Assembly: GCA_042852035.1 (NCBI GenBank) | Contig: BAAFHK010000003.1 | Span: forward strand, 224,473-256,472 | Length of the DNA: 32,000 nt | Source: Candidatus Saccharimonadota bacterium | GTDB taxonomy: Bacteria > Patescibacteriota > Gracilibacteria > BD1-5 > UBA2023 | Direction: 5' to 3' | Shown: one piece after another, positions 269 to 31,612 of the stretch | Layout: every line of letters begins with the position of its first letter | How positions within the stretch are numbered: the first letter of the stretch is position 1 | The notes under the pieces: generated by a model | Seen by the model: the letters and a program-made list of their open reading frames with translations, nothing else | What the model was told of the DNA's origin: nothing | The model's database searches: none | Program-made: the position numbers and the translations under genes

Positions 269-333
269 ATTCCCCCAATTCCTAAAAATACTATATACTT
301 GCATAAATAAAAATATTATTGTATATTAATTTT

Positions 334-927
334 ATGCAACGTTTTTTTATTGTACTCTTTTCATTCCTAGTTTTGAGCTTCCCGCCTTCTCTATTTGCTT
401 ATAAAATTACCGAGCAAATAGGCGATAATGAATTTTGTAAAATCATAAAAGTAGATGATGGAGATACTTTTAGCCTTGATTGTAGTGGTCGACAATATCC
501 AAATGTACGACTTTTATGAGTCAATGCTCCTGATAAAAACCAAAAAGATGGAAAAAAGTCCTGCTTTTATTCTGAAGCAAAAAGGTATCTCGAAAATCGA
601 AAGGATCGACTCTATAAGGTTGAGTTTTATGGGAGCGATCTTTGCAAAGATCCGTATAAATGATGCCGAAATCTCGTGCGACTTATTGATCTTGAGGGGG
701 ATTTTGACTTGTGAGAACGTATGATAGAGAAAGGTTTTGCATTTAGCTGGACGAATTTCTCCGTGGTTCCTCAATCTATTCGTGCTGTATATAGTCAGAG
801 AGAGGTATTTGCATTTGAGAAATGACTCTGACTCTGGGGAAAATGTGAAGTCGAGTTTTACGACGATTCTCGTATGAACTCGAGCTATCCAGATAAGATG
901 ACATCATCGAGTAAGCGGTACGAATAA
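334..927 (+). CDS. Secreted thermonuclease (staphylococcal nuclease / SNase-like) family protein
   Basis: ATG at 334 (alternative TTG at 319), TAA at 925-927. Hydrophobic N-terminal signal-like segment FFIVLFSFLVLSF. Motifs VDDGDTF and VRLL-G-VNAPD, the G encoded by TGA, match the SNase RLxGIDAPE signature. Five in-frame TGA codons. Confidence 0.8.
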
Positions 928-4278: not shown

Positions 4279-6270
4279 ATGGCTCTAAATCAACAAGAAA
4301 AAGAATTTCTATTGCAACTTATTAATGAATGAAAAGATATACCAGAAGATTTCAAATATAAACTTTTTCCTACTCTACAAAAGGAGTATGAGTTAAGTTA
4401 TGCAGGTAAGATGAGAAAAGAAGATCTTTTTGCTAATGAAGATGGTGTTTTTCCTGTTCCACTTCAAGTAGAAAAAACTTTTAATTGAAATGAATATAAA
4501 TGATTTGAAGATGGATGGAAAAATATGATCGTGTTTTGAGATAATTTACAATTCTTAAAAACAATTTATGAGAATAAAGATGATACCATTAAAGATAAGA
4601 TTAAAGGAAAAGTGCAATTAATATATATTGACCCACCATTTGCAACTACTGATGAATTCCAAAATAAAGAATGAGCTAAGGCTTATAATGATAAAAAAAT
4701 AGGGTCTGAATTTATTGAATTTCTTAGAAGAAGACTACTGATTGCAAGAGAAATACTTAGTGATAAGGGGGTAATATATATTCATCTGGATTGGAAAATG
4801 TCTCAATATATCAAAATAGTTTTAGATGAAATATTTTGAAAAAATAATTTTAGAAATGAAATTGCTTGGTGTTATAGTTGACCTTGAAAAAGCAGTAAAT
4901 CTTTTATAAGAAAACATGATACAATTTTATTTTATGCAAAAAATTGGAAAGAAAGCACTTTTAATATACAAAGAATAGAGCATAAATCATGAATTCATAA
5001 TAGAGGAGCATATCTATGAAAGGAAAATGAAGATGCATGAGAACTTGTTGAAAAACTTGAAGAAGAATGAAAGAGATTAGAAGATTGGTGGACTGATATA
5101 TATACTGCAGACAGAAAAAGAAATGAACTAATCTGATACCCTACACAGAAACCAGAAGCACTATTAGAGAGAATAATTATGGCAAGTTCTAATGAGTGAG
5201 ACATAGTTATGGATTTTTTTGGAGGCTCATGAACTACAATGGCTGTTGCAGAGAAATTATGAAGAAAATGGATTAGTTGTGATTTATGAAAACTAGCCTA
5301 TTTTACAGAACAAAAAAGAATACTTACTATTCAAGATAGTAAATCCCTATTAGATGAAAAGAAAAACTATTGAAAAAAAGCAAGGAGTTTTATGACCTGC
5401 ACTCTATGAATGTATAACTTGAAGGATACTCTTGATTTAGAATGGAGTAAGTATAAAGAATTTGTAGGAACACTTTTTGATATAGATATTAAAACTACTA
5501 CTATTTGATGAGTTGAATTTGATGGGAAAAAGTGATCTGCTCCTGTAAAAATGTGGGACTATAATAAGCATAAGGATGCAAATGTTGATGAAACATATAT
5601 TAATACACTTCATCAGTCTATTAAGGCAAAAACAAGTAGAGTTTATATTGTTGCCCCTGCAAATAATATAGGTTTTATTAGTGATTATTTTGAAATAGAT
5701 GGAACAAGATACTATTTCTTAAAAATACCTTATCAGGTTATAAAAGAACTTCATAAAAAATCATTTCATAAAATTAGACAACCACAAAGTAAGAAGAATG
5801 TAAATGATCTTGAAGAAGCAATAGGCTTTCACTTTATCAAGAAACCAGAAGTAAAATCAAAAATAGTTGTTTCTAATGATGAAATATGTGTAGAAATTTC
5901 AGAGTTTAGAAGTCAGTATTATAAAGATGAAGAATGAAAAATATTAGAAAATTTTGAAACTCTATCTGCTGTTTTTATAGATGCTAATTTTAATGGAGAT
6001 CAGTTTATAATGACAGATGTAAAATTTGCTGATGATTTATTGTCAAAGAAGAAAAAAGGTAAGAAGGTAGATGAAGATGAAGAGATTGATGCAGAATTAG
6101 ATGAAGATGAAGAAGGGGTAAGTAATGAAGAGATTAGAGCAGAATTAAAAGAAACAGCAAATAAAGGATTAAAAATAATACTTCCAAGAAAAAAAGTAGG
6201 AGATAAAGTAATGCTTATCTATACAGATATTTATGGGAATGATTTTACAGAAATACTAACAGTCAATTAA
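4279..6270 (+). CDS. mod: Type III restriction-modification DNA methyltransferase (Mod, beta-class amino-methyltransferase)
   Basis: 663-aa code-25 ORF. Motif IV IYIDPPF comes before motif I DFFGGS-G-TT. Also I-G-YPTQKPEALLERII and F-G-DNLQFLK, with the G residues encoded by TGA. Acidic low-complexity C-terminal tail. The next gene starts 1 nt after the stop. Confidence 0.85.
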
Positions 6271-6271
6271 T

Positions 6272-8872
6272 ATGCAAGATATACATATTTTTAGAAATCA
6301 AGACCTAGTCTTAAAAGTTAATCCTACTTATGATCCTACAAAATTAAGATTAAAAGAATGGGATAGTTTTTTAGATAAACTTTGTTGAGATAGAGATTAT
6401 CAGAAAGAAGCAATAAAGCAGGTGATTATCTTTATGGTGTGAGGAAAATATAAAAAAATAGAGGATTTAGCAGAGGAGAATTATAAAAATAATCCTGAAC
6501 TACAAATAAAATATTCATCTCTTGAAGATTATTTACATAAATTACAAATTCAGGGAAAGTTATTTGCTAATATTGATCTTGCCACCTGAACTGGAAAATC
6601 TTATGTAATGTATGGTATAGCACAAATAATGTTGGGATTATGAGTTGTAGACAGAGTATTGCTACTTTGTCCCTCTTTGACTATTGAAGCAGGGTTAAAA
6701 GAAAAATTTGAAAGTTTAAGTTGAAACCAGCAACTAAAAGATGCTATACCTGAAAACTCCATAATAAAAAATCCAAGAATTATTGATGCAAACCAAACCA
6801 TTAAAAGCGGAGATATATGTATAGAAAACATACATGCAGTATATGAAAAAACAGGATCTTCTATACAAGATAGTCTAAAATGAACTGGCAGTAATGTATT
6901 AGTTCTTAATGATGAATCACACCATATTTTTAATAAATCTTCTGATAAAGATGTTAAAAAATGGAAGGAGTTTTTAACTAATGATGATTTTTGATTTCAG
7001 TATATAGTTTGATTTACAGGAACAGCATATATTGATAATAACTATTTCAATGATGTTATATATAGATTTTCATTAAGAGAAGCAATAGAAAATAAGTTTG
7101 TGAAAAGTATTGAGTATGTAGCAAAAGATGATAGTATTTGAAAATGAGAAAAATTTCAAAAGATCCATCAAAACCATATTGATAATATAGATAGATACCC
7201 AAAGATTAAACCTCTTACTATTCTGATTACAGCAGATATTGAAAAAGCAGAAGAATTAAAAGATGATTTAGTTGAGTTCTTGATGCAAAAAGAGAATAAA
7301 AGTAAAGAACAGATAGAAGAAAAGGTTTTAATTATCACTTCTCATAAAGATCATAAAAGTAATTTACTAAAACTAAAAACAGTTGATAGCAAAGAAAATA
7401 AAACTGAATGGATTATATCAGTTTCTATGTTAAGTGAAGGTTGGGATGTAAAAAATGTTTTTCAAATTGTTCCTTGGGAAGATAGGGCATTTAATTCAAA
7501 ACTACTTATATCACAAGTTTTATGAAGAGGTTTAAGAGTGCCACCAGAATATGAATTACCACAACCAAAAGTGATAGTATTTAATCATGATGCTTGGAGT
7601 AGAAATATCATAGAACTTGTAAATGAAGTGTTGGAGATTGAAAAAAGAGTGGTAAGTGAGGTGCTTGATAGTTGAGACAGAAGTAAATATAATTTTGAAG
7701 TATTTAATCTAGATTATTCAAAAGAAGAAGTGGAAGTTGAATTAGAAACAAAAGAAAGTGTGATGAATTTTAGTAGAATATTTAATGAATGAATTAAATT
7801 GGAAGCACAGGTTGAGGAAATAGAAAAATGAACTGTATTTGAGAGTTTAGGTTGAACTCAATCCCAGAGAGAAAAAAATTACTTGATTGAATATGCAACA
7901 ACTTCTGTTGATGATATAGTAGATAAAATCTATTCTGAATTTGAAATGAGGGATTGGGAATGAAAAGTGCTACAACTTAATCAAGAACAATATACTCAAA
8001 ATAATCTACCTCCTAGAACAGTAATTAAGGAAATTATTATAAAATCAATGCAAAAACTCTGAATTAAGGGGGAAAGATTGATAGAAAAAAATAAAAATCA
8101 TATCCTTTCAGGATTTTGAACTTTATTAAGAAAAAAGAATAAAACAGTTATTACAAAACTTAAAGTCAATGATCCTATACTAATAAAAACCATAGAAGTA
8201 GATAGAGAAAGTTTAGGAATTTGAAATTTTAGAAAAGATTGCACTGTATTTCTGACAACAAACTATTTACAGGAAGTAAATGAAGAACAAGGTGCTATTC
8301 TTTCTGAATTAAGTGAAGATGAAAGCCTCCCTAGAAGTGCAATCAAAGAGCAGAATGAGTATTTATTTAAAACACCCCTTAATGTTATCTTAACAAAATG
8401 AGAACCTGAAAGAAAATTTATTGAAGGTTTATGTAAGCAAGATGTTGTTGAAAAAATTAATTGTTGGATTAAATCGAGAGATAGAGGCTTTTATGGTATA
8501 GAGTATAGTTTGAGATATTGAGATAAATGAAGTAATACAAGGAGATATACAAATAAAAAATTTAACCCTGATTTCTTTATTCAAATACAAAAAGAAGATA
8601 TAAAATATACTCTTGTTATTGAAACAAAGATGGATTGAGATGATAGTGAAGAGAACAAAGCAAAATATAAATATGCATTAGAACATTTTAATAGATTAAA
8701 TGAAGAACTAGAACAGAGAGGAATAAATGAAAAATACATTTTTCATTTTCTTAGCCCCCAATGATATTCAACATTTTTTGAATATTTAAAAGATGGAAGA
8801 ATATTGGAAGGACAAGAAAAGTATAGGTGTGCTCTTGAAAATAGCCTAGAAAATAATGAAGAGGAGCTATAA
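6272..8872 (+). CDS. res: Type III restriction enzyme Res subunit (SF2 helicase plus C-terminal PD-(D/E)xK nuclease)
   Basis: 866-aa code-25 ORF. Walker A DLAT-G-TGKS, DEAH-type box NDESHH, MLSEGWDV, QVL-G-RGLR. C-terminal NPDFFI ... LVIETK nuclease motif. Translationally coupled to mod. Confidence 0.85.
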
Positions 8873-9619
8873 TAAGGAAATTGCATACTTCCCTGTAAAG
8901 TTTTCTTTTAGGATTTCTTCATATTTTTCTTTTTTATAATCCCAACAAGACACAATCAAAATAAGGTTCTTTTCTCTAAACAGAGGAAAGAACTTTTTAT
9001 TATTCTTTCTAGTATTCATATCTTCATATCCTAGTACTTTCTGATGAAACTGTTTGTATGAGTTCATATTTTCTAATTCAAGACAATAGGCTGTATTTCA
9101 GATACTTAATAGTAAATCTGGTATCATAACAAAATCTAGATATTCATATTTAGTTTCAGGATTTTTTAACTCTGTTTGAAGTATTTTTTGGATTGTTTTT
9201 GATCCTGTAAAATATTCTGCTTTCAATACAAAATCCTTATTTTTATTTCTAATCTTTCATAGGAAATAAACAAAGAGATCTCATAATAGTAGTTGATGAT
9301 TATATAGGGTATAACTGGTATTATAAATTGATGGTTCATATTTTATTCAGGTCTCATAATAAATCCTGTTTAGGACTATTTCAGTAGTATTTAGCATATA
9401 AATACTATACTGGCTTATACTTTTATATTCTTGTTTCAGTTCTTTTATAAATCAATGCTTTTTCAGGAGGAGTAGCCTTATATTAAAGGTTTTATGTTGG
9501 GTTTCTGGACTAACAATATTTTTTAGATTTCTAGAACTACAAAATCATAATTCATTTAAAGTATGAAATATTAACAAGTCCCTAGGTGTTAAAACTATAT
9601 TTTCTCTGGTTTTATTCAT
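8867..9619 (-). CDS. Replication-relaxation (Replic_Relax)-like protein: N-terminal wHTH plus PD...ELE nuclease-like motif
   Basis: 250-aa code-25 ORF. N-terminus LTPRDLLIFHTLNELGFCSSRNL resembles the family as I recall it. IPDLLL...CLELEN motif. Its ATG overlaps the stop of the upstream ATPase gene. Confidence 0.45.
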
Positions 9620-11066
9620 ACTTTTCTCAATTAGATTTTAAAAGTTTCTGTATATTTTGATCTCAAATATTTAAAGACTGTGTTAATATGCTTAAAGTTC
9701 AGTGGTTAATAGTGTCAAAAACAGAATAGAACTCTCATCTTTTGAGATTAACAATATCTTTTTCACTTATTGCAAACTTTTGCTCTAATCAAGAATTGGT
9801 AATAGGAACAAATAACTCTGCCTGTTCTGGTGGTAATGCAAAAATAAGTGAATAACTCAAATTATTTAGTAAATCCTGTAATTCTCTACTGATACTCTGG
9901 AATATAAACAACATATTTATTTTTTTCTTCCTGTGTTCATTTAGTATTTTCTCTAAAATATCTAACATATGATTTTTACTACCTTGGAGTTCGAGAAAAC
10001 TTTGAAATTCATCACAAGTATAATAATGGCTTCATAAGTTGGGATTATTATGATTTTTACCTGCTCCAATGTGATATAAAATGTTTGTAAGGAAAGATAT
10101 TACTACTCTTCTTTCTTGGGTATTGAATACTGAAAAATCAAATAGATATACTTCTGTTTGTTTCTTTTCTCAACTCATATAGTGTTCTATGTCCAATGTA
10201 AGTTCTTTATAACTTTTTCAATATCCAAAAGTATCTCCTAATCAAAAACTAAAATCTTTCAATTTTGTTAAACTGGTAATATGAGACTGTTTATCTACTT
10301 GAAGATCTTTAAGAAAAGTTTTTAACTCTTGGTCTACTCCATTTGCAAGTTGGAGTATGTCAGAATGAGTAGAAGAAAATAGTTTTTTTCTATCTTCATC
10401 AAGATAAGTAGGAAGTTTCTGGCATCTACTGGTATAATCTAACAAATCATATAAATCCCTATAAGATAATAAAACATTGTCAGGATCTCTATGGTATCTT
10501 TCTATATTGATAACTATAAAACTTCTTATAAGTCCCTCTAATACTTTTGTGTTTGAGGGTCAGAAAGCAGAGTAGTTAAATACTCATTTCAAAGAGGAGA
10601 TATTATAGTTTACCCATTTATTTAAGTCTGTAATATCTTCTACAAGAGACAAAGCAAATAGTGGATTAAAGAAAAATGTTTTATCCATATAAAACCCTCT
10701 ATATTTTTTATTATTTTCAATAGTTTCATTGGAAAATCTAAAAATATCTCAATATCTGCTTAATTTTGGATTATCTATTAAGTATTCTCATAAAAGATTT
10801 AACAAAGGATTTATAAATGAGTTATGGGGATCAATACAAACAAAAGTATCTCCATACTTTGTATTATCTGGTTGAGACTGTTGTAAAATTGAAGATTTTA
10901 TAGTAGAAAATAGGGTAGATACTAAACTGTATGTTTTGCCACTTCAAGATTTTCAGAATATTCATCAATGACCGGATTTTAAAATATTGTAGTTGAGTGA
11001 TAAAAGTGCTTTATCTTCTAGTATATGGGACTTCTGGACTGTCCCTATGGGTATAATGTGAGACAT
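9612..11066 (-). CDS. Type IV coupling protein-like ATPase (VirD4/TraG/TraD family), no obvious N-terminal TM segment
   Basis: 484-aa code-25 ORF. Walker A GKSGSGKT. Walker B and TraG-D_C-like region YYTCDEFQSFLE ... HRKKKINMLFIFQS. Confidence 0.6.
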
Positions 11067-13311: not shown

Positions 13312-13350
13312 TTTCCTTTTATTAAGGTGGGTATGGGTATTTTTTAAATT

Positions 13351-14904: not shown

Positions 14905-14915
14905 TCTCATTTTCT

Positions 14916-16814
14916 ATGGAACAATCAAAGAAAAAAAGAGTAGGAATATACATTAGAGTTTCTACATTAGACCAAGCAAAAAAAGGAACTTCTCTTGAAG
15001 ATCAAGAGCAGAGTTTAAAATTATATATACAAGCAAACTCAATAGATGGTTGGGAACTTGCTGAAAATGGAGTTTACAGAGATGATGGAATTAGTGGTTT
15101 TAAGGGTATAGCAGATAGACCTGAATTTGATAGATTAATGAATGATGTGAATGACAAAAGATTAGATATTGTTTTGGTATATAGAATAGATAGACTAGCA
15201 AGAAATACAGAATTACTGCTGAATACTGTTAAGAAATTTAAAGTAAAGTGAGTGCAGTTTGTGAGTATGAGTGATAGAATTGATACAGATACAGCAAGTG
15301 GGAAGATGCTACTTGCTATACTAGGTGCTATGGCTGAAATGGAAAGGAACTTGATTTATGAAAGGACATATGCTTGAAAGATTAGAAAATTAAGTATGGG
15401 TTATGCTTCCTGATGATGATTTGATTTACCACTTGGTTATAAAAAATGAGAAGATGGGAAGATAATGATTGATGAGCCATATAAAGAGTTAATCCAAGAG
15501 ATTTTTGATCTTTGTACTGGGGAGAAGCACTTTACACCAAAAGAAATTGCTGCTGAATTATCATCAAGGGAAGAAACTACTTGGTGGGATAAAAAAATGG
15601 CAAAACTTAAAAAGAAACAAGTTAAAACAGGTGTCTGGAATGCAGATACAGTAAGAAAGATACTTCTCAATCCTATTTATAAATGAGTATACTATTTTTG
15701 AAAAACAAGAAAAGTGCTTGCAGATAATGAAGAAGATGAAATTACTGTAAAAGTTCCAGAAGAAGAATGGCTACCAGTTCCTATGCCTTGTGGTTGAATT
15801 ATTACAGAGAAACAATGGGAAGATGCTAAATATCAAATTCAAAAGATTAATAAAATTAATAGAGGAAGATGAAGAAGCCATATCTTTACAGGTCTAATTA
15901 AGTGTGGGTTTGACTGAATGAGTTATATTTGTTATAGGTCAAAACAGAAGAAAGTTGAATACTTTTATTATAGATGTGGTGGAACAAATGCGTCTAAAAA
16001 TGAGAATAAAAGAAAAGATACTGATGTAGGAAATATTGATATGCCTTTGTGTAATAATCTACAAGTTCCTGAATTAGAACTTTATAACTACTGTATTGAT
16101 ATTATTACAAGGTTCATAGAAGAACCAGAAGCACTATATAAACAAAAAATAGGGAATGATGAGGAGTTTAAGAAACAAAAAAAGATCCTTGAAACAAAAA
16201 TAGAGGAAGATAAGTTAAAAATTAAAGAACTTGAAGTTACTATAACATCATTGTATTATCAGAAATCAAAAGATAAAATAAATGCTGATAACATACAAAA
16301 TGTGCTTGATACATACACACAAGATAAAGAAGCAGCATTGAAAAGACTTGAAAATAATGAAAAAGATTTGCTAAATTCAGAAAATCAGTTAAATTCTGGC
16401 AAGCAAATGAAACAGTTTGCTGAGACTTACAAAGATAAACTTGCAAATCTTACAGAGGAACAAGGAACAGAACTTATTAGGTTGTTAGTTGATAGGATTG
16501 AAGTTAAAGGAACGTTAATTACAGTATTCTTTAAGTTCAAACCACACCCAGAGAGTTTTACACATAGTCAAACTCTAAAAAAAAACTCTAAAAAAATAGA
16601 GGGGGGAGATTTTACAACAAGTTCTACACCAAACAAGCAGTCTCTCCAACATATATGCAGCCGTAGTTCAGTTGGATTAGAACGCCTCCCTGCGAAGGAG
16701 GAGGTCACAGGTTCGAGCCCTGCTGGTTGCACCATTTCAACTCATAGAAGACTCTTCAGTACCATTTTTTGGCTCTGGGGAGCTTTTTTTAGGTTCGTAC
16801 TCATCTATACTTAA
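14916..16814 (+). CDS. Large serine recombinase LSR-A. The integrated-state ORF has no stop before the att core and runs through tRNA-Arg
   Basis: VGIYIRVSTLDQ (catalytic Ser), YRIDRLARN, recombinase domain, Zn ribbon CGFD-G-...YYRCGG, long coiled coil. The first code-25 stop is TAA at 16812-16814. The native end is probably just after core C (about 16613). Confidence 0.85.
16600..16613. repeat. att-like core copy C (AGGGGGGAGATTTT), putative attR of element A, inside the LSR-A ORF
   Basis: 14-nt identity with copies A and B, 44 nt upstream of tRNA-Arg. Confidence 0.55.
16657..16734 (+). tRNA. tRNA-Arg (anticodon GCG as folded by hand), CCA encoded
   Basis: Acceptor GCAGCCG/TGGTTGC, D arm GTTC..GAAC, anticodon stem CCTCC/GGAGG with loop CTGCGAA, T loop TTCGAGC, discriminator A, CCA. 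Confidence 0.7.
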
Positions 16815-18356
16815 TCAAACCTTGGAAGGTTGGAACCGATAGTTAATTGCTATTACTGGTCTTAAGTTCTCACGTGTAACCACTATATCTCTCACAAGAA
16901 TATTGATAATTTGCTTTTTTTGAGAAAAGGAGAGATTCTCAATTTTTGTCTCGATTGTTTTAGAAAATTCCTCAAGAGAGATTTTCATCTCTTCAGCTTG
17001 TACTATCCCATCAAGCTTCTCATCGAGATCCTGTATCTGTTTTTCACAAGCTTCTCTATCCTGAGATATTTTTGCAAGGACTTTTTCATATTTCTCTTCG
17101 GAGAGCATACCTTTCCTGTAATCTAATTCAGTTGATAGATCAGCATCTTCGAGCCTTTCAAGTTCTATCTGACGACGTTCACGCTCTTTAGTATATGTGT
17201 CGTAATCTCTACTGTCGACAGATTGCTTACGGAAGATATCATATAATTCCTGAGGTCTTTTAATAAAAGTCTCAATATGTTCCCATACCAATTCCTCTAG
17301 ACTCAATCAAGGAATATCAAAGTTTTTGTAATACTTTCCTCGGATAGTTCGAGCTGGACGACGGTAACTTATTCCACCTTTTGTTCGACTCACTCATACA
17401 AATTTCCGACCAGTTTCAAGATCGGTTACTTTTCTGGAGAGCAAATATTCTACGTTTCCACCTCATCTGACAGGATCCTCCTCACTCTCTTTGATGAGAT
17501 TTTTTGCAAGCTCGAAGGTGAGATCGTCTATAATCCTTGGCACCTCGATCGGTACTTGTGTCTCATATCACTTCTCGTCCTTGCTCTTGTACACAGCTCT
17601 CCCAGTATAAGCACCTCTTTCGAGAATATTTCTAATATCAGTATGATACCAAATTTTAGCTTTATTTTCTCTCGTATTCCCCTTTCCCTTATCGACCTTG
17701 TTTTCTGTAAGGATATTAGCGATTTCTTGATAGGTTTTCCCAGATAAGAATTCTGAGAAAATTCTCTTCACCCAAATTGCTTCTTCTGGAATAACAATTA
17801 ATGATCTTCATTCACGCTTATCACTTTTATCCTTAATATAACCAAATGGAGTCGTACTTAGTACATAATTCCCTAACCTTGCAGAGGCAAGCTTTCATTC
17901 TTTCGTTCTTGTCTTTATAGTTTCCCTCTCAAATTCTGCTAAAGCTCAAAATATCTGAAATGTAAGTTTACCGATGGGACCAGTAAAATCTATATTCTCT
18001 TTCAGAGAGAAAAATCAAACCTTATTTTTTTGTAAGATTTCAAATGTTGATAGAAGATGGGAGAGGTTCCGAGATAGTCTATCTATTTTCCACACAGCAA
18101 CCATATCAAACTTCCCAAGCATAGCGTCTTCTATCATTTTTTTATACTGAGGTCTATTCAGATCAGCACCAGTCTTTCCTAGGTCCTGATACACCCATTC
18201 TGGATTATGTATCCAGTTATTGTGTTTTCCTCGAAAAACAATCATTTCCTGTAATCACTGAAGTTGCATTTCTGGTCAATAGCCATTCTTTTGTTCTTCA
18301 GTCGATACACGGATATAAAATGCAACTCGATGGGGTTTATCACTAATTGTAAGCAT
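16677..18356 (-). CDS. Large serine recombinase LSR-B. Code-25 reading continues past TGA at 16817-16815 into the antisense of tRNA-Arg
   Basis: VAFYIRVSTEEQ, WKIDRLSRN, G-ALAEFERETI, coiled-coil C-terminus. Internal TGA codons sit at conserved Gly positions. Under code 25 the first stop is TAA at 16679-16677. The homology-like end (…INYRFQPSKV) is at 16818. Confidence 0.8.
16752..16797. repeat. Direct repeat, left copy (putative attL of element B)
   Basis: TGGCTCTGGGGAGCTTTTTTTAGGTTCG (16770-16797) matches 23347-23374 at 27 of 28 nt. The upstream CTCTTCAGT is also shared. Contains a weak GCTC/GAGC hairpin plus a T7 run. Confidence 0.65.
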
Positions 18357-18381: not shown

Positions 18382-18459
18382 ATAATATTTTTCATTAAGG
18401 AAAAGTAAAGAAAATATCTATCAGAAGATTAATAAAAATAGACTATACCAAGATATAAT

Positions 18460-18805: not shown

Positions 18806-18829
18806 CTAATTATTTATATGATACAGAGG

Positions 18830-19022: not shown

Positions 19023-19024
19023 CT

Positions 19025-19345: not shown

Positions 19346-19360
19346 ATAACCTTATAAGAT

Positions 19361-19666: not shown

Positions 19667-20117
19667 TACTGCCGTATTCTCCAGATTCAAGGACTTTAGC
19701 CTTCTTTTCAATAGATTTTAGTATCTCAAAAGCTCTCTTGGGACTAATATCGAGAATGATATTTTGAGGACCATTATTGATAGTTACTTTATCTTTGTCT
19801 ATACGCCACTCTGGATCTGTATGCTTCAAAAATTGGAGAGAGACTTGTATATCTCCTTCAGCAAGTGCTTTATTGATATTTTGTTTTGCGAGAAGGCGAG
19901 AATAGACTCATTTTGTGTTGCGAATTTCCTCTCGAAACTCTGGATTTTTATCCAGAAAACGGTAAAAGGCAGATACCGAGAAACCGCAAGCAAAAGAGGA
20001 TTCTTCGATTGTATGTCATAGTGAAATATACTCCTTGAATTTCGAGAGATTAGAAGGAGTTATTTTTGAGGGTCTGCCAATTTTATTATGTGTTTTAGTT
20101 GTATAGATCTTGGGCAT
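19605..20117 (-). CDS. Phage terminase small subunit-like HTH protein
   Basis: 170-aa code-25 ORF. The N-terminus GRPSKITPSNLSKFKEYISL-G-HTIEESSFACGFSVSAFYRFLDKNPEFREEI matches the GRPxKYxP...G.T...A...vS..T...W....peF pattern of small terminase or HTH_23-type proteins, from memory. Confidence 0.5.
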
Positions 20118-20140
20118 AGTCAGATTATCTTATTAAAAGT

Positions 20141-21169
20141 CTATGTTACTATTCTAAAATTAAAATTCACAGCATCTATGGAGTAAATAGTGATATCCTC
20201 ACATCTTACCTTATTGTCACGAAACAAAGCTATATTATATCACTGTGGATTCAAAGAACTATCGTATATTAAACCATCATATCATCACAAAACTTTTAAA
20301 AATTCAGCAATATATTGCGTTGGGAGATAATCTAACTCTTTGTCATCTTTTAGATTTGGCTTTGAAAACTCATTACTCATTCTTGAAATGAAGTGAATAT
20401 AAGGATAATAGTCTTCTATTTTTTCCCTCTCTGAAAGACGCATAAAATCAATAGAATCTTTCCTCAGATCAACTAAAATCAAATCCTCTAGTACTATGAA
20501 TTTCCCAGTGCATATTTGATCATAATGGGAGGCTCTAGTTTCATAGAATGTAGTAACAACATCACCTGATAGATATAAATAGGGTATTCCTATTGGGTTA
20601 ATTCTTCAGCCTTTAGAGGATACTTTATTTATAGGAGGCATACCCAAATCTTGGATATTATATAAATTTCAAGATCTACTAATCCTGCTTCTATACAATA
20701 AGTTATCAGCATCAATGGTAGTAGTGTGATAGTTTATTAAAATATATTCTATCTCTTCTAAATCTAACGCATTTGTTATATGGAATCGATTAGTATTTTT
20801 TAATTCATTGGTAAAGTTATCCCATCATTTAGTTAGGTGTATTTTTTGAGATGGAACTAATTTAGCATTGTCAAAAATTGGATATTTATGGGTGATAAAT
20901 ATGTCACTAAGTAATCTATTACTGCCTCATCAGGGATTAAAAATGCTTCAAAATTCTCAAAGTATAGAATCTATAGTTCAGATTGAACTCTCAATATCTT
21001 CAATATGTAGTTTTGAAAGACCCTCAAACATATGACCAAAGTCCACATCGCTAATATCACAAACGTGAACATTATTACTCTCGCAATAATCACACTCACC
21101 CTGTTGATTTAAAGAGCTAATGTACGCTTTAACATATGGACTATTGAAACAATTTTTACAACAAAGCAT
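20141..21169 (-). CDS. RES domain protein with N-terminal Cys-rich (Zn-ribbon-like) domain; predicted NAD-targeting toxin or effector
   Basis: 342-aa code-25 ORF. CCKNCF...CDYCES at the N-terminus. RES signature GGRINPIGIPYLYLSGDVVTTFYETR and C-terminal G-G-YDGLIYDSSLNPQ-G-YNIALF. The start lies 3 nt after the stop of the upstream gene. Confidence 0.75.
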
Positions 21170-21172
21170 ATA

Positions 21173-22126
21173 CTATACTAAACTAACCATTAATTCTATA
21201 TGATTCATAATCGCAAGCTTCTTTATAGAACCAAGTCAAGGGAAGTGACCAGTATTGTATAAATCTATAAATTCTTTAATGCCTTGTGTTTCAATTCCAG
21301 TATTCTTGGACCATTCTACTAATTTTGAGTTTGCCTCATTAAATTTTCAGGCAACATCAGATCTATCTCAATTTGAATCTGAAACAAAATGCCTTACCAT
21401 TACTTTCCCCGAAGTATCTTTATACGAAATATGTATAGCTACTGCAAAAGGCATAAATCCAGCTTCTGAATAGTTATCTCAAATGGTAGCAAAATCTCAA
21501 AATCCGACAAATTGTTCCGTCTTATAAAATAGATGCTCTTCGGTAAAAGCACTTGATTTGTCTTTATAATCAGAGTTCCTATTTTGTGATTCGAAATAAT
21601 CTGCTAGTGAAACCCTGGAAGATTCTATAAACTCTCTATAATAACGACGATTGCTGTTTGTTTTATCGAAATTAATTACGTTATATTTAATTTTTGCAAT
21701 CGAACTAAGATCATCTTGAAGTGACTTAATATTATCAGCATCTAAAACACTATTATGAATTAAGGATAACCCGCTTCAAACAGGTCCAGTTGTCACTAAA
21801 CAGCCTTTAATTTCGCTTGCTTTTAGAAAGTAGTTATCGTTTATGATAAGTCATATTTGAAAATTACTATAATCTCATAGCTCGGTAGTAACTAACTCCA
21901 TTATTTGTTCATACTTATCTTGAGCATCGCCATATTCAGGATTTAGAACAATAGTAAAATTAACGTTACTCTCTTTGAGTTTCCGTAGAGTTATATCAAA
22001 TGTTGTCGAAAACTTAACGGGCTCAATTATTGGTGAAACCTTTTCATTATTCAGGGCTAAAAAAGAGCTCATATCTCTAAGTGCCATTAATTCGAATTGC
22101 TTTCATCTTAGATACGGAAAATACAT
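21173..22126 (-). CDS. T4 Beta-protein / sce7725-like family protein (function unknown)
   Basis: 317-aa code-25 ORF. The N-terminus MYFPYLR-G-KQFELMALRDM and FVGF-G-DFATI-G-DNYS match my recollection of that family. 2-nt gap to the upstream gene. Confidence 0.45.
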
Positions 22127-22128
22127 AT

Positions 22129-23058
22129 TTATGAAACTTTAGTATTTAAATACTGATTCAGCTTTTGAAGCTCTTTGCTGTCTAGCCCTATGTTATAGCA
22201 AGAATACCTTAATGCCTCAGGTGCTGTCTTTAAGTAATTTTGATAACTTACATTCTTTTTGCGTTCTTTTAGCCTTTCGAAAGCTAGTTTCTGAAATTTG
22301 GTTACTTCTATATTCTTAGCAAGATCTAAGCAATAACGGAATTGTTTAGTATTTGGTACATCAACCTTAGTATTGAAATAGTTCTCGATTAAATTCAAAT
22401 ATTCATCTTTTCTCAAGGTTTTAAATATTGTGTCGTGATCAAACCTTGTCATATCCACAATGGCTTCTTGTACAGTCTTGAGAGTATTTCTATTTGTAAA
22501 TTCAATGATTCCTATATTAGTATCCTTATACTCTTCGATGATTTTTGCTAATAACTTTTTACTACTGACTATATAAACTTTATTTGCGAATTTTCTATAG
22601 TCATTTATTTGTTTTTCTAGCTTATCAAGTGTGTCTAATTCTGTCTTTACTTCAAATATCTTTACCTCACCATTGAGTAAGACGAAATCAGCAATTGAGG
22701 ATCATATAGTAAACTCATCAAATACTACAGTATGACTTGTCTTATATTTTGATAATTGACTATGTAAGAGTTTATTCTTATAAAAATACTCATTTCTATA
22801 ATTCCTTAGCAAGTACTCATATAGACTCTCTACAATGTCCTTATATGTAGAACCTTCTTGAATATCAAAATGTTTACTGATTCGATACCTAAACGCCGAA
22901 AAATCACCATCTATAAATTTTTTGATAGACGATGCCGAAAGAAGGGAGGCAATACTGATGAGAGCGTCTTTTTGTAGATCTTGTAACATATTGATTTTCC
23001 TCATTCTAATCGAATTGCTCGATAAAACAACATTTTTACTATACATAAAATTGCACAT
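22129..23058 (-). CDS. PD-(D/E)xK nuclease-fold protein (sce7726-like); start codon uncertain
   Basis: Code-25 ORF. YRNEYFYKNKLL then VVFDEFTI-G-SSIADFVLLNGEVKIFEVKTELD (a D...EVK motif). Candidate starts at 23058, 23046 and further in-frame Met codons downstream. Confidence 0.5.
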
Positions 23059-23094
23059 TCTGTTATATCTTGATTAAAGTAACTATTTTCCTCT

Positions 23095-23316
23095 CTATAC
23101 TATAACACCCTCTCTTTCCACCCTCTCAAGAAATGATCAGACTGAGTTCTTCGGTGTTTGGACTCGGATTGATTCTTGATATTCCTTAAGCTTCTTTACT
23201 TCCTCACGGTGCATTGTCACGTACTGACTTTTCCATCGATTTCCTATTTGCAACTTACGTAACTTGAAATACAGAGGAAGGACAAAGTAACGTTCTGAGT
23301 TTTTACCACCATACAT
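23095..23316 (-). CDS. Small basic ORF (73 aa) abutting the right repeat; in frame with LSR-B across a reconstituted attP
   Basis: ATG 23316 to TAG 23097-23095. The frame stays open upstream through the repeat. Unusually long stop-free stretch for this composition. Confidence 0.35.
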
Positions 23317-23327
23317 ATTGGAATTAG

Positions 23328-23374
23328 CTCTTCAGTCGTCACTTTGTGGCTCTGGAGAGCTTTTTTTAGGTTCG
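23328..23374. repeat. Direct repeat, right copy (putative attR of element B)
   Basis: TGGCTCTGGAGAGCTTTTTTTAGGTTCG (23347-23374) plus the upstream CTCTTCAGT. See 16752-16797. Confidence 0.65.
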
Positions 23375-23707: not shown

Positions 23708-25960
23708 ATGCTACAATCTCTTGCGTGAAATCTCCAACTTGAACCAGAAAATTGATCACAAAGAATCTGGCAATTCCTACATCAATATCTGTCACAATTA
23801 GGATCCAATGGTATATTAGGTTATAAGATACCATCATTGTGAAATGAGCAAGAATGGGTTCCTTCAATTATTTTTAGATCAAAAGAACATGGGATAATAT
23901 TAATTGAAATCGCAAAAGATAAACTAGAATCAGTCAATGATAGTGATTATTGGTTTTATAAAACATGACATACTCACACTAGAAATAAAGATAATGTTTT
24001 AGATACATTTAAATGAGAAGTTGAAAATAGACTAAGAAAGAGTAATCAACTATATGATAGAAAAAACAAGATGTTCTTAGTTGAAATTAAAACAATATTA
24101 ATTCTTCCTTTTAATGATAAAGTAGATGAAAAATCACTCTTAACAGAATTATATCCAGATTGGCTCTGTGATAAAGTTCTCTACTCAGATAACTATGAAG
24201 ATGAATTAAAATCACTGCTTTGAGAAAAAGATTTAAATTATGGTGAAGATCAATTGAGTATGATAGATGCATTGCTGGAATGAACAGAATCATTTATTTC
24301 AAAAAATGATTTTATTCCCAATGATCCTAAAACAAAAAATGATTTTATAAAAGAATCTCTCAATGAAACTTTTAGATTAGACCAAACTCAGAGATCTCTA
24401 GCCATGCAAATTCCTAGTTGACCACAACGAATTAGATGACTTGCAGGTACTTGAAAGACAGTGATTTTGTGCATGAAAACAGCCCTAGTACATAAGGATC
24501 ATAAAGATTTTAAAGTACTGTTTTTATTTAATACTCAAAGCATGTACTGACAAATTCGAGATAAGATAACAAAGTATTATTTAAACGAGAAAAAAAGTAT
24601 ACCAGACTGGAATAATGTTCATATTTTACATGCCTGGTGATGAAGATCTCGTGAGTGATTATATTATAGGCTCTGCAATGAGTTGAATATTAAACCAAAA
24701 ACCCTTTTGGATATTCCAAGATGATTTGATGGTACTGAAGTAATTTATAAAGACATTTTAAAATATAAGGATCAACTCAAGCAAGAATATGATATGGTTT
24801 TAATTGATGAGGCTCAAGATTTTCCACAGGAAGTATTTGAGACACTGTTCTATATAACGAAGTGAGATCCTTGAAAGAAAAAAATTATTTGGGCGTACGA
24901 TGAATTTCAAACATTAAAAGATATTAAAATCAAACAACCTGAACAATTATTCTGAAGAGACAATGATGGCAACCCAAATATGCCAAACAATATATTAGAT
25001 TGACAGTATCTTTGATGAATAAAAAAGGACTTCGTTTTACCAAATTCATATAGAAACCCACGCCTCACTTTAATGGTGGCTCATGGAATATGAATGTGAT
25101 TATATAGCGAAAAAGATATAATTCCTATGGAAGATAGGGAATCCTGGATTGCTCGATGATATACTGTCATTGAGCCCGCACAAAAGAATAACTTCTCTGC
25201 AAATGATCAAGTGGTGGTTGAAAGAGAAGACACTTATAGTAAGAATATTTTAGAGAGATTGTTATCTGAAAAATGAAATCATAATGATACATTAATACAA
25301 TTTCATGATGCTGATAATCTAATTTCCGAATTAACTTATGTTAGCTCAGAAATTAAGAAGCTAATTACAGAAGACGGTGTTCCTCCTGAAGAAATAATTG
25401 TTATTACACTTCGAACATCAACATCCAAAAAAGATCTAGAAATGCTAAGATCACTACTTAATCAAAATGGTATAAGTGCGATTACGCCTTGATATGTGGA
25501 ATCTTCAAATATGTTTAAGGAACCATGATCTGTAACCTTGGTTACGCCATTTAGAGCAAAAGGAAATGAGGCAAATATCGTTTTTGTAATAAATTCTCAA
25601 CAAGTTATAGCAAATGCAACTTATGTTGCAAGAGGATCATTTTTTGTATCTGTAACTAGATCCCGATGATGGTGTTATATTTCATGAAATGGAGATTTTA
25701 TAGATAAATTATGACTCGAAATTAATAAAATTATTAGTGATTATCCAAAATTCAAATTTTCATTTCCTAATCCTGAAAGCCTTCAGAGGAGACTTAATCT
25801 TATCAACAATTCAGATAAGGCGGAAAAGGTGGATGAACAAATTGATTTATTATTCTCTGACGAGGTCTCAAAAAGTGTTTTAATGGAAAGATTACTTAAA
25901 GATGAGGCTTTTAAAAAAGTTTATAATGAATATCAAGCAAAAAACAGCAATGATGTTTAG
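23708..25960 (+). CDS. Fused PD-(D/E)xK (NERD-like) nuclease and SF1 UvrD-like helicase
   Basis: 750-aa code-25 ORF. N-terminal HGIILIEIAKDK nuclease-like core. Walker A GLAGT-G-KT, Walker B MVLIDEAQDF, late SF1 motifs TPFRAKGNEANIVFV and VSVTRSR. Confidence 0.7.
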
Positions 25961-26981: not shown

Positions 26982-27317
26982 TCAGTCCTCTTTGGGGGTG
27001 GGTTTCTTCTTCTCGGCTACCGTCTGTTGGACGATGTGTACCGGGGTGAATGCGCCCAGCGTCACGGAAGCCACGATGGCAATTCCGATGAATCCCCAGA
27101 AGGATTCGAATTGGCTCACTTGGCAGCCGAAGATCTTGTGGAATGCCACCCAGAAGGGGTAGCCAAGAACCTCGATACACCAATACAAGCCATCCTTTAT
27201 CCACTGGAACACTCCAGGGATGACATGGTAGAGTGTTACCCCTACGATGCCGATGACGAGAATGGAGAAGATAGTACTTCCCACACTCCGCCAGTCTGTT
27301 GGCCACACGTTTTTCAA
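26982..27317 (-). CDS. Small Trp-rich membrane protein (3 predicted TM segments) encoded by a GC-rich foreign-looking segment
   Basis: TTG start at 27317 preceded by GGAGAA. 111 codons without an internal TGA, GC-rich third positions. Ends on TGA (26984-26982), followed by the GC hairpin GGGCCGG-TGGTG-CCGGCCC. Under code 25 it would read on to TAA at about 26873-26875. Confidence 0.55.
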   Translation of the reverse strand: MKNVWPTDWRSVGSTIFSILVIGIVGVTLYHVIPGVFQWIKDGLYWCIEVLGYPFWVAFHKIFGCQVSQFESFWGFIGIAIVASVTLGAFTPVHIVQQTVAEKKKPTPKED

Positions 27318-29728: not shown

Positions 29729-29807
29729 TGGAGCGGGGGACCGGGTTCGAACCGACACACCCAAGGGTTGAAGCCTTAGTACACTCACTCTTTTATGTTA
29801 CCCCCGC
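29729..29807 (-). tRNA. tRNA-Gly (anticodon UCA), the UGA-decoding tRNA of genetic code 25
   Basis: Reverse complement GCGGGGG-TA-ACAT..GTGT-..-TAAGG-CTTCAAC-CCTTG-GGTGT-GTCGG-TTCGAAC-CCGGT-CCCCCGC-T-CCA. Anticodon loop C-U-UCA-A-C. G1:C72, C2:G71, G3:C70 and U73 are bacterial GlyRS identity elements. Confidence 0.8.
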
Positions 29808-29875
29808 ATATTGGATAATCGGTTTCCCGAAGTGCGTGCGTATATTATAGTGAGAAAGAAAAAAGTCAAAAAGTT

Positions 29876-31612
29876 TTGGTGAAAGAATATTTGTATATAG
29901 GATTATATGAAAAATTCATGCAATCCACCTTCCTCCACGAATTCATTTGTATACTTCTCAATGACTCTTCTTTAACAACGAAGAGGGATTATCAAAAAGT
30001 GAAAAATACACTTCTCGCAAAATATGGCAATGAAGTTGAGGATGTAAGTTCTATTGAGGTACTTGAATTTTATCGAGAAGGAATTACAAATAAGATATAT
30101 ATATATGACTCGAGAGTGTGGAAAATTCTTCGTAAAAGATGAGTGCGTTCTCTTTCGGGGGTTTCTGTGATCTCTCTTCTCACAAAGTTTTGGGGATGTC
30201 CTGGGAAATGTATATATTGCCCGACTTATGATGGGCTTCCGAAAAGTTATATAACGTGAGAGCCAGCTGTTCAACGAGCAGAAATGAATGAATTCGATCC
30301 CGTCCGCCAAGTCCAAAACCGTCTCAGATCACTTGAGATAACGGGAAATGCAATAGCGAAATGCGATGTGAGAATTATTTGAGGCACCTGGAGCGTATAC
30401 CCACTGGAGTATCAAGAAATGTTTATAAAATGAATTTATGATGCTCATACAACCTATAGTGATTTACGACCATTTCTTGCTTCAGTAGAGACAGGGGAAG
30501 ACGTTTTTGCGCGTTTTAAAGTAGAGAAATGATTTAAAATGAAGGCTTCAGAAACTTTGGAGGATGCAAAAGAAAGAAATCAAACAGCGGAGTCTCGCGT
30601 CATTGGAATTGCGATTGAAACTCGACCGGATTGGATTACCCCAGAAGAAATTATACGACTCAGAAAATATGGAATTACACGAGTGGAGATAGGGTACCAA
30701 ACAACAGATGATACCATAAATCTACTCAATAAAAGATGACATGGAAATAAGGAATCGATTGAGGCAACTCGGCTTCTCAAGGACGCTGGTTTTAAAGTTG
30801 TAGCCCATATGATGCCCAATCTCCTAGGATCTACACCAGAGAAAGATAGATGGTCTATGAAAGAGGTTTTCGAGAGCTCTGATTTTAGGCCTGATGAACT
30901 CAAAATTTACCCTATGGTTGTGACCCCTTATTCTGAGCTAGAAAATATATGGAGAACGGGTTGATTTCGAGCCTATGACGATGACACGCTTATTAATCTC
31001 ATGGCAGATCTTCAAGGAATGATACCCGAGTATGTACGACTCAATCGTATGTATCGAGATATCCCAGCAGATCAGATTTTAGCGGGATCAAAACTTGCAA
31101 ATCTGAGACAACTGACAGAAGCAAAAATGAAAGAGAAATCAATCATGCGTCTTGATATTTCCTCAAGAGAAATTCGAGCTAAGTGAAATAATCCTCATGA
31201 TGCCGTTTTAGATGAGTATTTTTATGAGGCAAGTGGTGGTCATGAATACTTTCTCCAGTATATTGATCCCAATGATAGAACGATTTTTTGACTTCTCCGT
31301 TTGCGCATTCCTTCACAGTATTTTACTCGAGAAAAGCATTTTGTAGAGGTGTTGGAAGGTGCTGCAATAGTAAGAGAACTTCATGTTTTTTGAGACCAAC
31401 TTTCTATCGGATGATCTCCTGATGGAAGTGGTCAACATATGGGCTTTTGAAAAAAACTCATGCGAAGAGCTGAAGAAATTGTACAATCAAAGTATCCAGA
31501 AATATCAAAATTAGCAGTCATAGCTTGAGTTTGAGTACGAAAATATTATGAGAAACTTGGATATTTTCACGAAGAAGAGTATATGATAAAGCCTCAAATA
31601 TCAGAAAATTAA
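29876..31612 (+). CDS. elp3: ELP3-family radical SAM / GNAT tRNA U34 carboxymethyl-modification enzyme homologue
   Basis: Code-25 ORF. Start at TTG 29876 or ATG 29918. Radical SAM cluster GCPGKCIYCP, ETRPDWIT, RVEIGYQT, KIYPMVV. C-terminal GNAT motif GQHMGF-G-KKLMRRAEE. Confidence 0.8.

What the first reader, a model, noticed from the sequence alone, without database searches (positions are those of the whole stretch)
29729..29807. UGA is a sense (Gly) codon here, and the decoding tRNA is in the window
In-frame TGA falls on invariant Gly positions in at least six unrelated families: methylase FxGxG and GYPTQKP, SNase RLxGxDAP, helicase Walker A, the serine recombinase GxxAEFER region, ELP3 GNAT QHxGxG, and the RES C-terminal GYDG. 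Trp is always TGG. A tRNA with anticodon UCA carries the Gly identity set (G1:C72, C2:G71, G3:C70, U73). Every gene call in this window depends on this reading, and standard-code annotation would see almost nothing.
Basis: partly seen in the sequence, partly recalled or inferred. Interest (0 to 1): 0.6.

Follow-up and report, generated by a model that had tools for sequence, protein, structure and literature searches.

The report
Known UGA=glycine code and its tRNA

Summary
Observation and interpretation both hold, and the phenomenon is already known (NCBI table 25).

- **tRNA:** ARAGORN and Rfam find a tRNA with anticodon UCA at exactly 29729-29807 (-). It has G1:C72, C2:G71, G3:C70, U73 and an encoded CCA. 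It is the only UCA tRNA in the 1.30 Mb genome.
- **Conservation:** 29 of 30 same-order relatives carry it, with compensatory stem changes.
- **Coding density:** ORFs of 150 aa or more cover 5.8% of the window under table 11 and 83.7% with TGA as sense. Across the three contigs the figures are 12-19% and about 90%.
- **TGA columns are Gly columns:**
  - Methylase: 61.5% G, 2.6% W.
  - Elp3: 47.7% G, 0.7% W.
  - MnmA, outside the window: 10 of 12 aligned TGA positions are G.
- **Codon exchange:** between relatives, TGA exchanges with GGN (26) or stays TGA (19), and never with TGG.
- **Codon usage:** TGA is the most used Gly codon (2.38% of codons).
- **Release factors:** RF2 was not found here or in 30 relatives. 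It is present in 47 of 61 genomes of the class.
- **Other codons:** CGA and CGG remain Arg.

Earlier notes of this scan on other DNA of this genome already treat it as UGA=Gly.

Small additions:
- This order's tRNA(UCA) has an extra nucleotide in the anticodon arm and no GG in the D loop.
- It is only about 60% identical to the tRNA(UCA) of another recoded family.
- Elp3 lies divergently beside it.

The parts
29729..29807 (-). tRNA-Gly(UCA), the UGA decoder. 79 nt with encoded CCA. Has G1:C72, C2:G71, G3:C70, U73, anticodon loop CUUCAAC, an extra nucleotide in the anticodon arm and a 10-nt D loop without GG.
   Evidence: ARAGORN. Rfam tRNA 43.5 bits. Sequence. Only UCA tRNA in the genome. Present in 29/30 relatives. 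Covariation in 7 pairs, 99.1% of cells paired.
29842..29869 (-). Promoter-like site (TTGACT, 16 nt, TAATAT) about 35 nt upstream of the tRNA. Weak evidence only.
   Evidence: Consensus scan. The number of sites is not above the shuffled expectation.
29876..31612 (+). Elp3-type radical-SAM/GNAT tRNA U34 modification enzyme with 14 in-frame TGA, divergent neighbour of the tRNA.
   Evidence: Pfam Radical_SAM and Radical_SAM_C. PDB Elp3 at E 4.5e-90. TGA columns counted. NCBIfam ELP3 451.8 bits.
4279..6270 (+). N6/N4 DNA methylase with 23 in-frame TGA, including the FxGxG and xYPTQKP motif glycines.
   Evidence: Pfam PF01555 at 2.7e-50. TGA column counts. PDB alignments.
6272..8872 (+). Type III restriction res/helicase subunit with 24 in-frame TGA, one in Walker A (LATxTGKS).
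   Evidence: Pfam ResIII. Translation.
319..927 (+). SNase-like nuclease with 5 in-frame TGA, one in the RLxGxDAP-type motif (VRLLxVNAPD).
   Evidence: Pfam SNase. Translation.
9612..11066 (-). HerA/FtsK-like ATPase with 17 in-frame TGA, two in Walker A (IFxKSxSGKT).
   Evidence: Pfam DUF87. Translation.
16677..18356 (-). Large serine recombinase with 12 in-frame TGA, one in IFxALAEFERE.
   Evidence: Pfam Resolvase and Recombinase. Translation.
14916..16814 (+). Large serine recombinase with 11 in-frame TGA. Its frame runs through the tRNA-Arg(GCG) gene.
   Evidence: Pfam. Translation. tRNA at 16657-16734.
20141..21169 (-). RES-domain protein with 11 in-frame TGA, two in LxxYDGL.
   Evidence: Pfam RES. 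Translation.
23708..25960 (+). UvrD/ResIII-like helicase with 30 in-frame TGA (68% of its Gly codons), two in Walker A.
   Evidence: Pfam. Translation. Codon counts.

Best explanation
The window is chromosomal DNA, carrying integrated mobile islands, of a Gracilibacteria (BD1-5)-type Patescibacterium that uses genetic code 25.

Shown here:
- UGA is an ordinary glycine codon, in fact the most used one.
- UAA and UAG are the only stops.
- UGG remains Trp, and CGA and CGG remain Arg.
- A single dedicated tRNA gene at 29729-29807 (-) has an anticodon, UCA, that pairs with UGA and an acceptor end matching tRNA-Gly.
- No release factor 2 was found.

Inferred from the sequence and from published work on related lineages:
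- The genome's dimeric-type GlyRS charges this tRNA with glycine.
- With no RF2, nothing competes at UGA.
- U34 is probably modified so that UGG is not misread. Elp3 and MnmA are encoded; MnmG was not found.
For: - tRNA. It is the only UCA tRNA of 38 in the genome, alongside Gly(GCC), Gly(UCC) and Trp(CCA). Its nearest tRNA in the genome is Gly(UCC), at 66%.
- Conservation: present in 29/30 same-order genomes at 85-100% identity. 7 pairs show double-sided changes, and 0 of 500 shuffles reach the observed values.
- Coding density: 5.8% against 83.7% in the window, and 12-19% against about 90% in the three contigs.
- Gly columns: methylase, Elp3, PDB alignments for methylase, Elp3 and MnmA.
- Codon exchange: own TGA aligns to TGA 19 times, GGN 26 times and TGG 0 times in 8 relatives. 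The reverse direction gives the same counts.
- Composition: GGN 4.71% plus TGA 2.38% gives 7.08% Gly. TGG is 1.09%. Reading TGA as Trp would make Trp 3.47%.
- Release factors: RF2 not found in this genome. In 30 relatives the prfB hits are the prfA loci and all score below cut-off. RF2 is over cut-off in 47/61 genomes of the class.
- Other enzymes: GlyRS dimeric type. MnmA present with 13 in-frame TGA. Elp3 present. MnmG not found.
- Lineage: the nearest named Elp3 homologues are Candidatus Gracilibacteria.
- Literature: proteomics gave 97 peptides unique to UGA=Gly against 3 for Trp in a BD1-5 bacterium (PMC4032931). Codetta infers UGA=Gly in Gracilibacteria and Absconditabacteria (PMC8629427).
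Against: - No direct evidence exists for this organism: no peptides, no aminoacylation assay, no tRNA sequencing.
- A36 replaces C36, which is a GlyRS identity element in standard systems (my knowledge). Charging is therefore inferred from the acceptor end and from published work on SR1.
- RF1 is also missing from this assembly. The assembly is 90.8% complete, so the RF2 result for this genome alone is weak. The 30 relatives carry that argument.
- Several TGA columns are not Gly in homologues, for example Elp3 positions 89, 128, 363 and 513, though these are variable columns.
- A small GC-rich ORF at 26982-27317 (-) ends at a TGA. Other notes of this scan report conserved TGA-ended small genes in this genome. 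Context-dependent behaviour of a few UGA codons is therefore not excluded.
Confidence: 0.96

Rival explanations
1. UGA is read as tryptophan (code 4, as in Mycoplasma and some insect endosymbionts), and the UCA tRNA is a tRNA-Trp.
For: TGA as sense restores ORFs equally well under code 4. A few database homologues show W in the TGA columns, 2.6% of cells.
Against: - TGA columns hold 48-62% G and 0.7-2.6% W.
- The scattered W cells fall in otherwise all-G columns. They look like other recoded genomes translated with code 4 (inference).
- TGA never exchanges with TGG between relatives.
- The tRNA has G1:C72 and U73, whereas this genome's tRNA-Trp(CCA) has A1:U72 and G73.
- Trp would make up 3.47% of residues.
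Confidence: 0.01
2. The tRNA is a selenocysteine tRNA, as ARAGORN labels it, and the TGAs are Sec codons or true stops in pseudogenes.
For: ARAGORN's label 'tRNA-SeC'. Anticodon UCA.
Against: - There are 8,023 in-frame TGA in 650 long ORFs, and 640 of the 650 contain at least one.
- The tRNA is 76 nt plus CCA, with a 7-bp acceptor stem and a 4-5 nt variable loop. Bacterial tRNA-Sec has an 8-bp acceptor stem and a long variable arm (my knowledge).
- SelA was not found.
- TGA sits at conserved Gly positions, not Cys/Sec positions.
Confidence: 0.005
3. The tRNA(UCA) is a suppressor tRNA carried by one of the mobile elements or a phage in the window, not part of the host's translation apparatus.
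For: The window holds two integrated islands with serine recombinases, restriction-modification genes and defence genes. Phage-borne suppressor tRNAs are known (my knowledge).
Against: - The tRNA lies outside the islands as delimited by the other notes, 2383-16613 and 16657-23374.
- It is the genome's only UCA tRNA.
- TGA is sense across all three contigs.
- The same tRNA is present in 29/30 relatives across three families.
- It lies beside the housekeeping gene elp3 in 9 of them, this genome included.
Confidence: 0.01
4. UGA is mainly Gly but keeps a second, context-dependent meaning (termination or stalling) at a few genes, such as the GC-rich small ORF ending at 26982.
For: The ORF at 26982-27317 (-) has no internal TGA and ends on a TGA. 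Under code 25 it would gain 39 residues. Earlier notes report conserved TGA-ended small genes in this genome and its relatives.
Against: No RF2 was found to recognise UGA. I did not test conservation of the extension. Ten of 650 long ORFs lacking TGA may simply be chance. This rival modifies the main reading rather than replacing it.
Confidence: 0.08

Closest known systems
Genetic code 25 of Gracilibacteria (BD1-5/GN02): Rinke et al. 2013; Hanke et al. 2014 (PMC4032931); Codetta screen (PMC8629427)
   Same: - UGA is read as Gly.
- A tRNA(UCA) carries G1:C72, C2:G71, G3:C70 and U73.
- No RF2 was found.
- The genome is small and of low GC.
- UGG stays Trp.
- The nearest named homologues are Candidatus Gracilibacteria.
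   Different: Nothing essential; this is a further genome of that clade. TGA here is the single most used Gly codon: 34% of Gly codons genome-wide and 46% in the window's long ORFs.
SR1/Absconditabacteria UGA=Gly with tRNA-Gly(UCA) (Campbell et al. 2013, cited; not held in the library, so details are from my knowledge)
   Same: The same reassignment and the same acceptor-stem identity set.
   Different: - Absconditabacteria are also predicted to read CGA and CGG as Trp (PMC8629427). Here CGA is common (116 per 10,000 codons) and aligns to conserved Arg, and tRNA(UCG) and tRNA(CCG) have A73.
- Another recoded family of the class (f91, identity unnamed) has a tRNA(UCA) only about 60% identical. 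It has a normal 5-bp anticodon stem, GG in the D loop and G37.
Code 4 (UGA=Trp) of Mycoplasmatales, Entomoplasmatales and insect endosymbionts
   Same: UGA is captured as a sense codon by a tRNA with anticodon UCA in a small, AT-rich genome without RF2.
   Different: The amino acid is Gly, not Trp. The decoder must therefore avoid UGG, whereas a tRNA-Trp(UCA) may read both codons (point made in PMC8629427).

Membership tests
NCBI translation table 25 (UGA=Gly; Gracilibacteria/SR1) | In-frame TGA is frequent in real genes, and long ORFs appear only when TGA is sense. | tested here: met
   Window cover is 5.8% against 83.7%, and contig cover 12-19% against about 90%. 640 of 650 ORFs of 300 aa or more contain TGA.
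NCBI translation table 25 (UGA=Gly; Gracilibacteria/SR1) | TGA positions align to conserved Gly in homologues from standard-code organisms. | tested here: met
   Methylase G 61.5% against a 5.4% background. Elp3 G 47.7% against 6.1%. PDB Elp3 shows 8/13 G, and PDB MnmA 10/12 G.
NCBI translation table 25 (UGA=Gly; Gracilibacteria/SR1) | TGA is interchangeable with GGN codons between related genomes. | tested here: met
   In elp3 of 8 relatives: TGA to TGA 19, to GGN 26, to TGG 0, in both directions.
NCBI translation table 25 (UGA=Gly; Gracilibacteria/SR1) | tRNA with anticodon UCA and the Gly acceptor identity (G1:C72, C2:G71, G3:C70, U73). | tested here: met
   The criterion is the one used in PMC8629427. 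These positions are invariant in the 15 distinct copies from relatives.
NCBI translation table 25 (UGA=Gly; Gracilibacteria/SR1) | No release factor 2. | tested here: met
   Not found in this genome or in 30 relatives, where the hits are the prfA loci and score below cut-off. Positive control: RF2 is over cut-off in 47/61 genomes of the class. Caveat: this assembly is 90.8% complete and also lacks prfA.
NCBI translation table 25 (UGA=Gly; Gracilibacteria/SR1) | UGG remains Trp, with a separate tRNA-Trp(CCA). | tested here: met
   tRNA-Trp(CCA) is present. TGG columns hold 62.6% W. TGG stays TGG in 35 aligned codons and never becomes TGA.
NCBI translation table 25 (UGA=Gly; Gracilibacteria/SR1) | The tRNA is charged with glycine, and Gly is found at UGA positions in peptides. 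| not testable with these tools
   Published only for related lineages (proteomics, PMC4032931).
Code 4 (UGA=Trp) | TGA aligns to conserved Trp, and the tRNA(UCA) has Trp identity (G73). | tested here: not met
   W is 0.7-2.6% of cells in TGA columns. The discriminator is U73.
Bacterial tRNA-Sec / selenoprotein decoding | 8-bp acceptor stem, long variable arm, SelA/SelB machinery and rare TGA at Sec sites. | tested here: not met
   7-bp acceptor stem and 4-5 nt variable loop. SelA not found. TGA makes up 2.38% of codons.
Absconditabacteria extended code (CGA/CGG=Trp, PMC8629427) | CGA and CGG are rare and align to Trp, and the tRNA(UCG)/tRNA(CCG) have Trp identity. | tested here: not met
   CGA is 116 and CGG 25 per 10,000 codons. 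CGA columns in Elp3 are conserved Arg. Both tRNAs have A73. CGG rests on a single column.

The most novel reading that the evidence does not exclude
The UGA decoder of this order is not a lightly edited tRNA-Gly. It is a remodelled tRNA whose odd body is functional.
- It has an extra nucleotide in the anticodon arm, giving either a 6-bp stem or a bulged U.
- It has a 10-nt D loop without the G18-G19 pair.
- It has A37.
- These features are fixed across three families of the order.
- They are absent from the tRNA(UCA) of another recoded family, which is only about 60% identical although tRNA-Gly(UCC) is 84-88% identical between the same genomes.

The reading would be that the two recoded lineages shaped, or recruited, their decoders separately. 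The longer anticodon stem, together with U34 modification by the neighbouring Elp3 and by MnmA, would keep the tRNA from misreading UGG. This would mirror the report that 4-bp anticodon stems loosen decoding (PMC13092985).
Probability: 0.12. Interest if true: 0.5.

Novelty: already known. Interest (0 to 1): 0.12.

Why it matters
Practically, it matters a great deal for this window. Under the standard code almost no gene is called, and under code 4 every TGA-encoded glycine would be written as tryptophan, including catalytic-motif glycines. Code 25 must therefore be used for all downstream work on this genome.

Scientifically, it is a correct rediscovery of a reassignment described in 2013 and validated by proteomics in 2014, so it adds another member genome rather than a new principle.

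The side observations touch an acknowledged open point: how a U34 tRNA-Gly(UCA) avoids reading UGG (PMC8629427). These observations are the atypical, order-specific tRNA body, the contrast with another recoded family, and the set of U34 modification genes.

Tried and rejected
- **Free-energy fold of the tRNA alone.** It was uninformative (z -0.67, no cloverleaf). The covariance model and covariation were used instead.
- **RF1/RF2 in this genome.** Neither was found, so the RF2 result for this genome alone is not decisive. I relied on the 30 relatives and the class-level control.
- **Elp3 as a marker of the recoded clade.** Rejected. Elp3 is over cut-off in 65 of 151 sampled Patescibacteria, and their matches (other than this genome's) carry no in-frame TGA.
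- **Adjacency of tRNA(UCA) and elp3.** Seen in only 9 of the 30 tRNA loci examined (this genome included), all in one family. It is therefore not a conserved operon-like link.
- **First Elp3 homologue search.** It returned only close relatives that had already been translated with G at TGA, so they are not independent. I used 50%-identity representatives instead.
- **Campbell et al. 2013.** Not held in the library. Statements about it rest on my knowledge and on citations in other papers.
- **BLAST of the tRNA against the class.** It missed the tRNA(UCA) of the other recoded families. A covariance model found it in two genomes of family f91, and none was seen among the listed hits for G214 (f102).
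- **Absconditabacteria-type CGA/CGG=Trp.** Tested and rejected for CGA. CGG rests on one column.

Full report
**1. The observation**

ARAGORN finds five tRNAs in the window. Rfam's tRNA model scores it at 43.5 bits against a gathering score of 29.

Read 5' to 3', the tRNA has these features:
- a 7-bp acceptor stem with G1:C72, C2:G71 and G3:C70
- discriminator U73 and an encoded CCA
- a 4-bp D stem and a 10-nt D loop
- the anticodon loop CUUCAAC
- a 4-5 nt variable loop
- a normal T arm

ARAGORN's name 'tRNA-SeC' is only a consequence of the anticodon. The molecule has neither the 8-bp acceptor stem nor the long variable arm of bacterial tRNA-Sec (my knowledge), and SelA was not found in the genome.

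- DFFGGSxTT and LIxYPTQKP in the methylase
- VRLLxVNAPD in the SNase-like protein
- LATxTGKS, IFxKSxSGKT and RxLAGTxKT in three Walker A loops
- IFxALAEFERE in a serine recombinase
- QHMGFxKK in Elp3
- LxxYDGL in the RES protein

**2. TGA is a sense codon**

Under table 11 the window has 17 ORFs of 100 aa or more, and the longest is 298 aa. With TGA as sense it has ORFs of 866, 750, 663, 632 and 578 aa.

| Sequence | ORF cover (150 aa or more), table 11 | ORF cover, TGA as sense |
|---|---|---|
| Window | 5.8% | 83.7% |
| Three contigs of the 1.30 Mb genome | 12-19% | about 90% |

Making TAG or TAA sense instead does little. Pfam families are found across these frames.

**3. TGA means Gly**

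I translated TGA as X so that the alignments were not biased, then counted what homologues carry in those columns.

| Protein | Homologues | TGA columns | G in cells | W in cells | Background G |
|---|---|---|---|---|---|
| Methylase | 119 full-length, 51-71% identical | 23 | 61.5% | 2.6% | 5.4% |
| Elp3 | 114 representatives, mostly 36-47% identical | 14 | 47.7% | 0.7% | 6.1% |

- **Methylase.** The named homologues include Treponema, Sulfurimonas and Aliarcobacter records. The query's own GGN columns hold 71.7% G and its TGG columns hold 62.6% W. The few W cells sit in otherwise all-G columns. They are most simply other recoded genomes translated with code 4 (inference).
- **Elp3.** Seven of the 14 TGA columns are near-invariant G.
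- **Solved structures.** Dehalococcoides and archaeal Elp3, and the RsrI and MboIIA methylases, show the same pattern.
- **MnmA, outside the window.** It has 13 in-frame TGA, and 10 of the 12 aligned ones are G in a solved MnmA. This includes both glycines of the SGGxDS loop.

An annotation-free test agrees. In elp3 of eight relatives, this genome's TGA codons align to TGA 19 times, to GGN 26 times and to TGG never. The reverse direction gives the same counts. This genome's TGG aligns to TGG 35 times and to TGA never.

Composition points the same way. GGN is 4.71% of codons and TGA 2.38%, which sum to an ordinary 7.08% Gly. TGG is 1.09%. Reading TGA as Trp would give 3.47% Trp. TGA is the commonest single Gly codon (8,023 against 7,086 GGA). 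In the window's long ORFs it supplies 46% of Gly codons, and up to 68% in the helicase.

**4. The decoder and the rest of the apparatus**

- The genome has 38 tRNAs. They include one UCA tRNA (this one), Gly(GCC), Gly(UCC) and Trp(CCA).
- The UCA tRNA is most like Gly(UCC), at 66%. tRNA-Trp(CCA) has A1:U72 and G73.
- The same tRNA, full length and 85-100% identical, is present in 29 of 30 genomes of the same order, across three families.
- In the 15 distinct copies, 99.1% of cells pair and seven pairs show changes on both sides. No shuffle of 500 reaches the observed values. The identity positions and the anticodon loop are invariant.
- RF2 was not found in this genome. In the 30 relatives the prfB hits fall on the prfA loci and score below cut-off. 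Those prfA genes carry 1-17 in-frame TGA.
- As a positive control, RF2 is over cut-off in 47 of 61 genomes sampled from the class. Most of the remainder belong to this order or to two other families whose RF1 genes are full of TGA.
- This assembly also lacks prfA. This is most simply an assembly gap, since the assembly is 90.8% complete and 29 of 30 relatives have the gene.
- GlyRS is the dimeric type.
- CGA and CGG are still Arg, unlike the extension proposed for Absconditabacteria.

**5. Comparison with what is known**

This is NCBI table 25.
- UGA=Gly was reported for SR1 and Gracilibacteria in 2013 (cited).
- It was validated by proteomics in a BD1-5 bacterium, with 97 peptides unique to the Gly translation against 3 for Trp (PMC4032931).
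- The nearest named homologues are Candidatus Gracilibacteria.
- The database copy of this window's own proteins is 100% identical to the code-25 translation.
- Earlier notes of this scan on other parts of this genome already call it a UGA=Gly bacterium.

The finding is therefore right, and it is not new.

**6. What is slightly unusual**

The tRNA body is atypical.
- There is one nucleotide too many between the D stem and the anticodon stem. This gives either a 6-bp stem topped by C:G and U·G, or a 5-bp stem with a bulged U. The extra pair never varies, so covariation cannot decide between the two.
- The D loop has no GG.

A covariance model built from these copies found the tRNA(UCA) of another recoded family in the class. 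That tRNA has a normal 5-bp stem, GG in the D loop and G37. It is only about 60% identical to this one, although tRNA-Gly(UCC) is 84-88% identical between the same genomes.

The gene next to the tRNA, divergently placed, is elp3, a U34-modifying enzyme.
- MnmA is present and MnmG was not found.
- The adjacency holds in only 9 of the 30 tRNA loci examined, this genome included, all in one family.
- Elp3 is common in standard-code Patescibacteria.

Elp3 is therefore a plausible modifier of this tRNA, not a signature of the recoding.

**7. Verdict**

The phenomenon is already known, and interest is low except as an annotation prerequisite.

Noticed in passing
window 29729-29807 (-); L053:1504-1577 (-), L055:1504-1577 (-): This order's tRNA(UCA) has an extra nucleotide in the anticodon arm (6-bp stem or bulged U), a GG-less D loop and A37. 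The tRNA(UCA) of another TGA-recoded family in the class has a standard 5-bp stem, GG in the D loop and G37, and is only about 60% identical. tRNA-Gly(UCC) is 84-88% identical between the same genomes.
   Followed up: partly
window 29876-31612 (+) next to 29729-29807 (-): elp3 (tRNA U34 modification) is the divergent neighbour of the U34 tRNA-Gly(UCA). The adjacency recurs in 9 of the 30 tRNA loci examined, this genome included, all in one family. MnmA is present and MnmG was not found in the genome. Elp3 is widespread in standard-code Patescibacteria.
   Followed up: partly
whole genome (G000): No class I release factor at all is found in this assembly: neither prfA nor prfB, by HMM or by tblastn with a relative's RF1. 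29 of 30 relatives have prfA. This is probably an assembly gap, since the assembly has 3 contigs and is 90.8% complete.
   Followed up: partly
window 26982-27317 (-): A small GC-rich ORF (47.5% GC locally, against 37% for the genome) has no in-frame TGA and ends at a TGA. Code 25 would extend it by 39 residues to 26862. Another note of this scan treats it as a conserved TGA-ended membrane-protein gene.
   Followed up: no
window 16763-16797 and 23340-23374: A 35-nt direct repeat (91% identical) that looks like a terminator lies just downstream of tRNA-Arg(GCG). The two copies bracket a 6.6-kb segment with a serine recombinase and a RES-domain cassette. Both convergent serine recombinase frames run into the tRNA gene. 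Other notes of this scan cover this.
   Followed up: no
window 4000-16000: The low-GC island (about 27% GC, against 37% for the genome) uses TGA for 50-60% of its Gly codons, more than the genome average of 34%. Its methylase nevertheless has 51-71% identical full-length homologues in standard-code bacteria. This suggests long residence of the element in recoded, lower-GC hosts after transfer across the code boundary.
   Followed up: no
G000 C1:462340-462415 (-): ARAGORN calls a second tRNA-Trp(CCA) with odd ends. It is not followed by CCA and the acceptor boundaries look shifted. I did not examine it.
   Followed up: no
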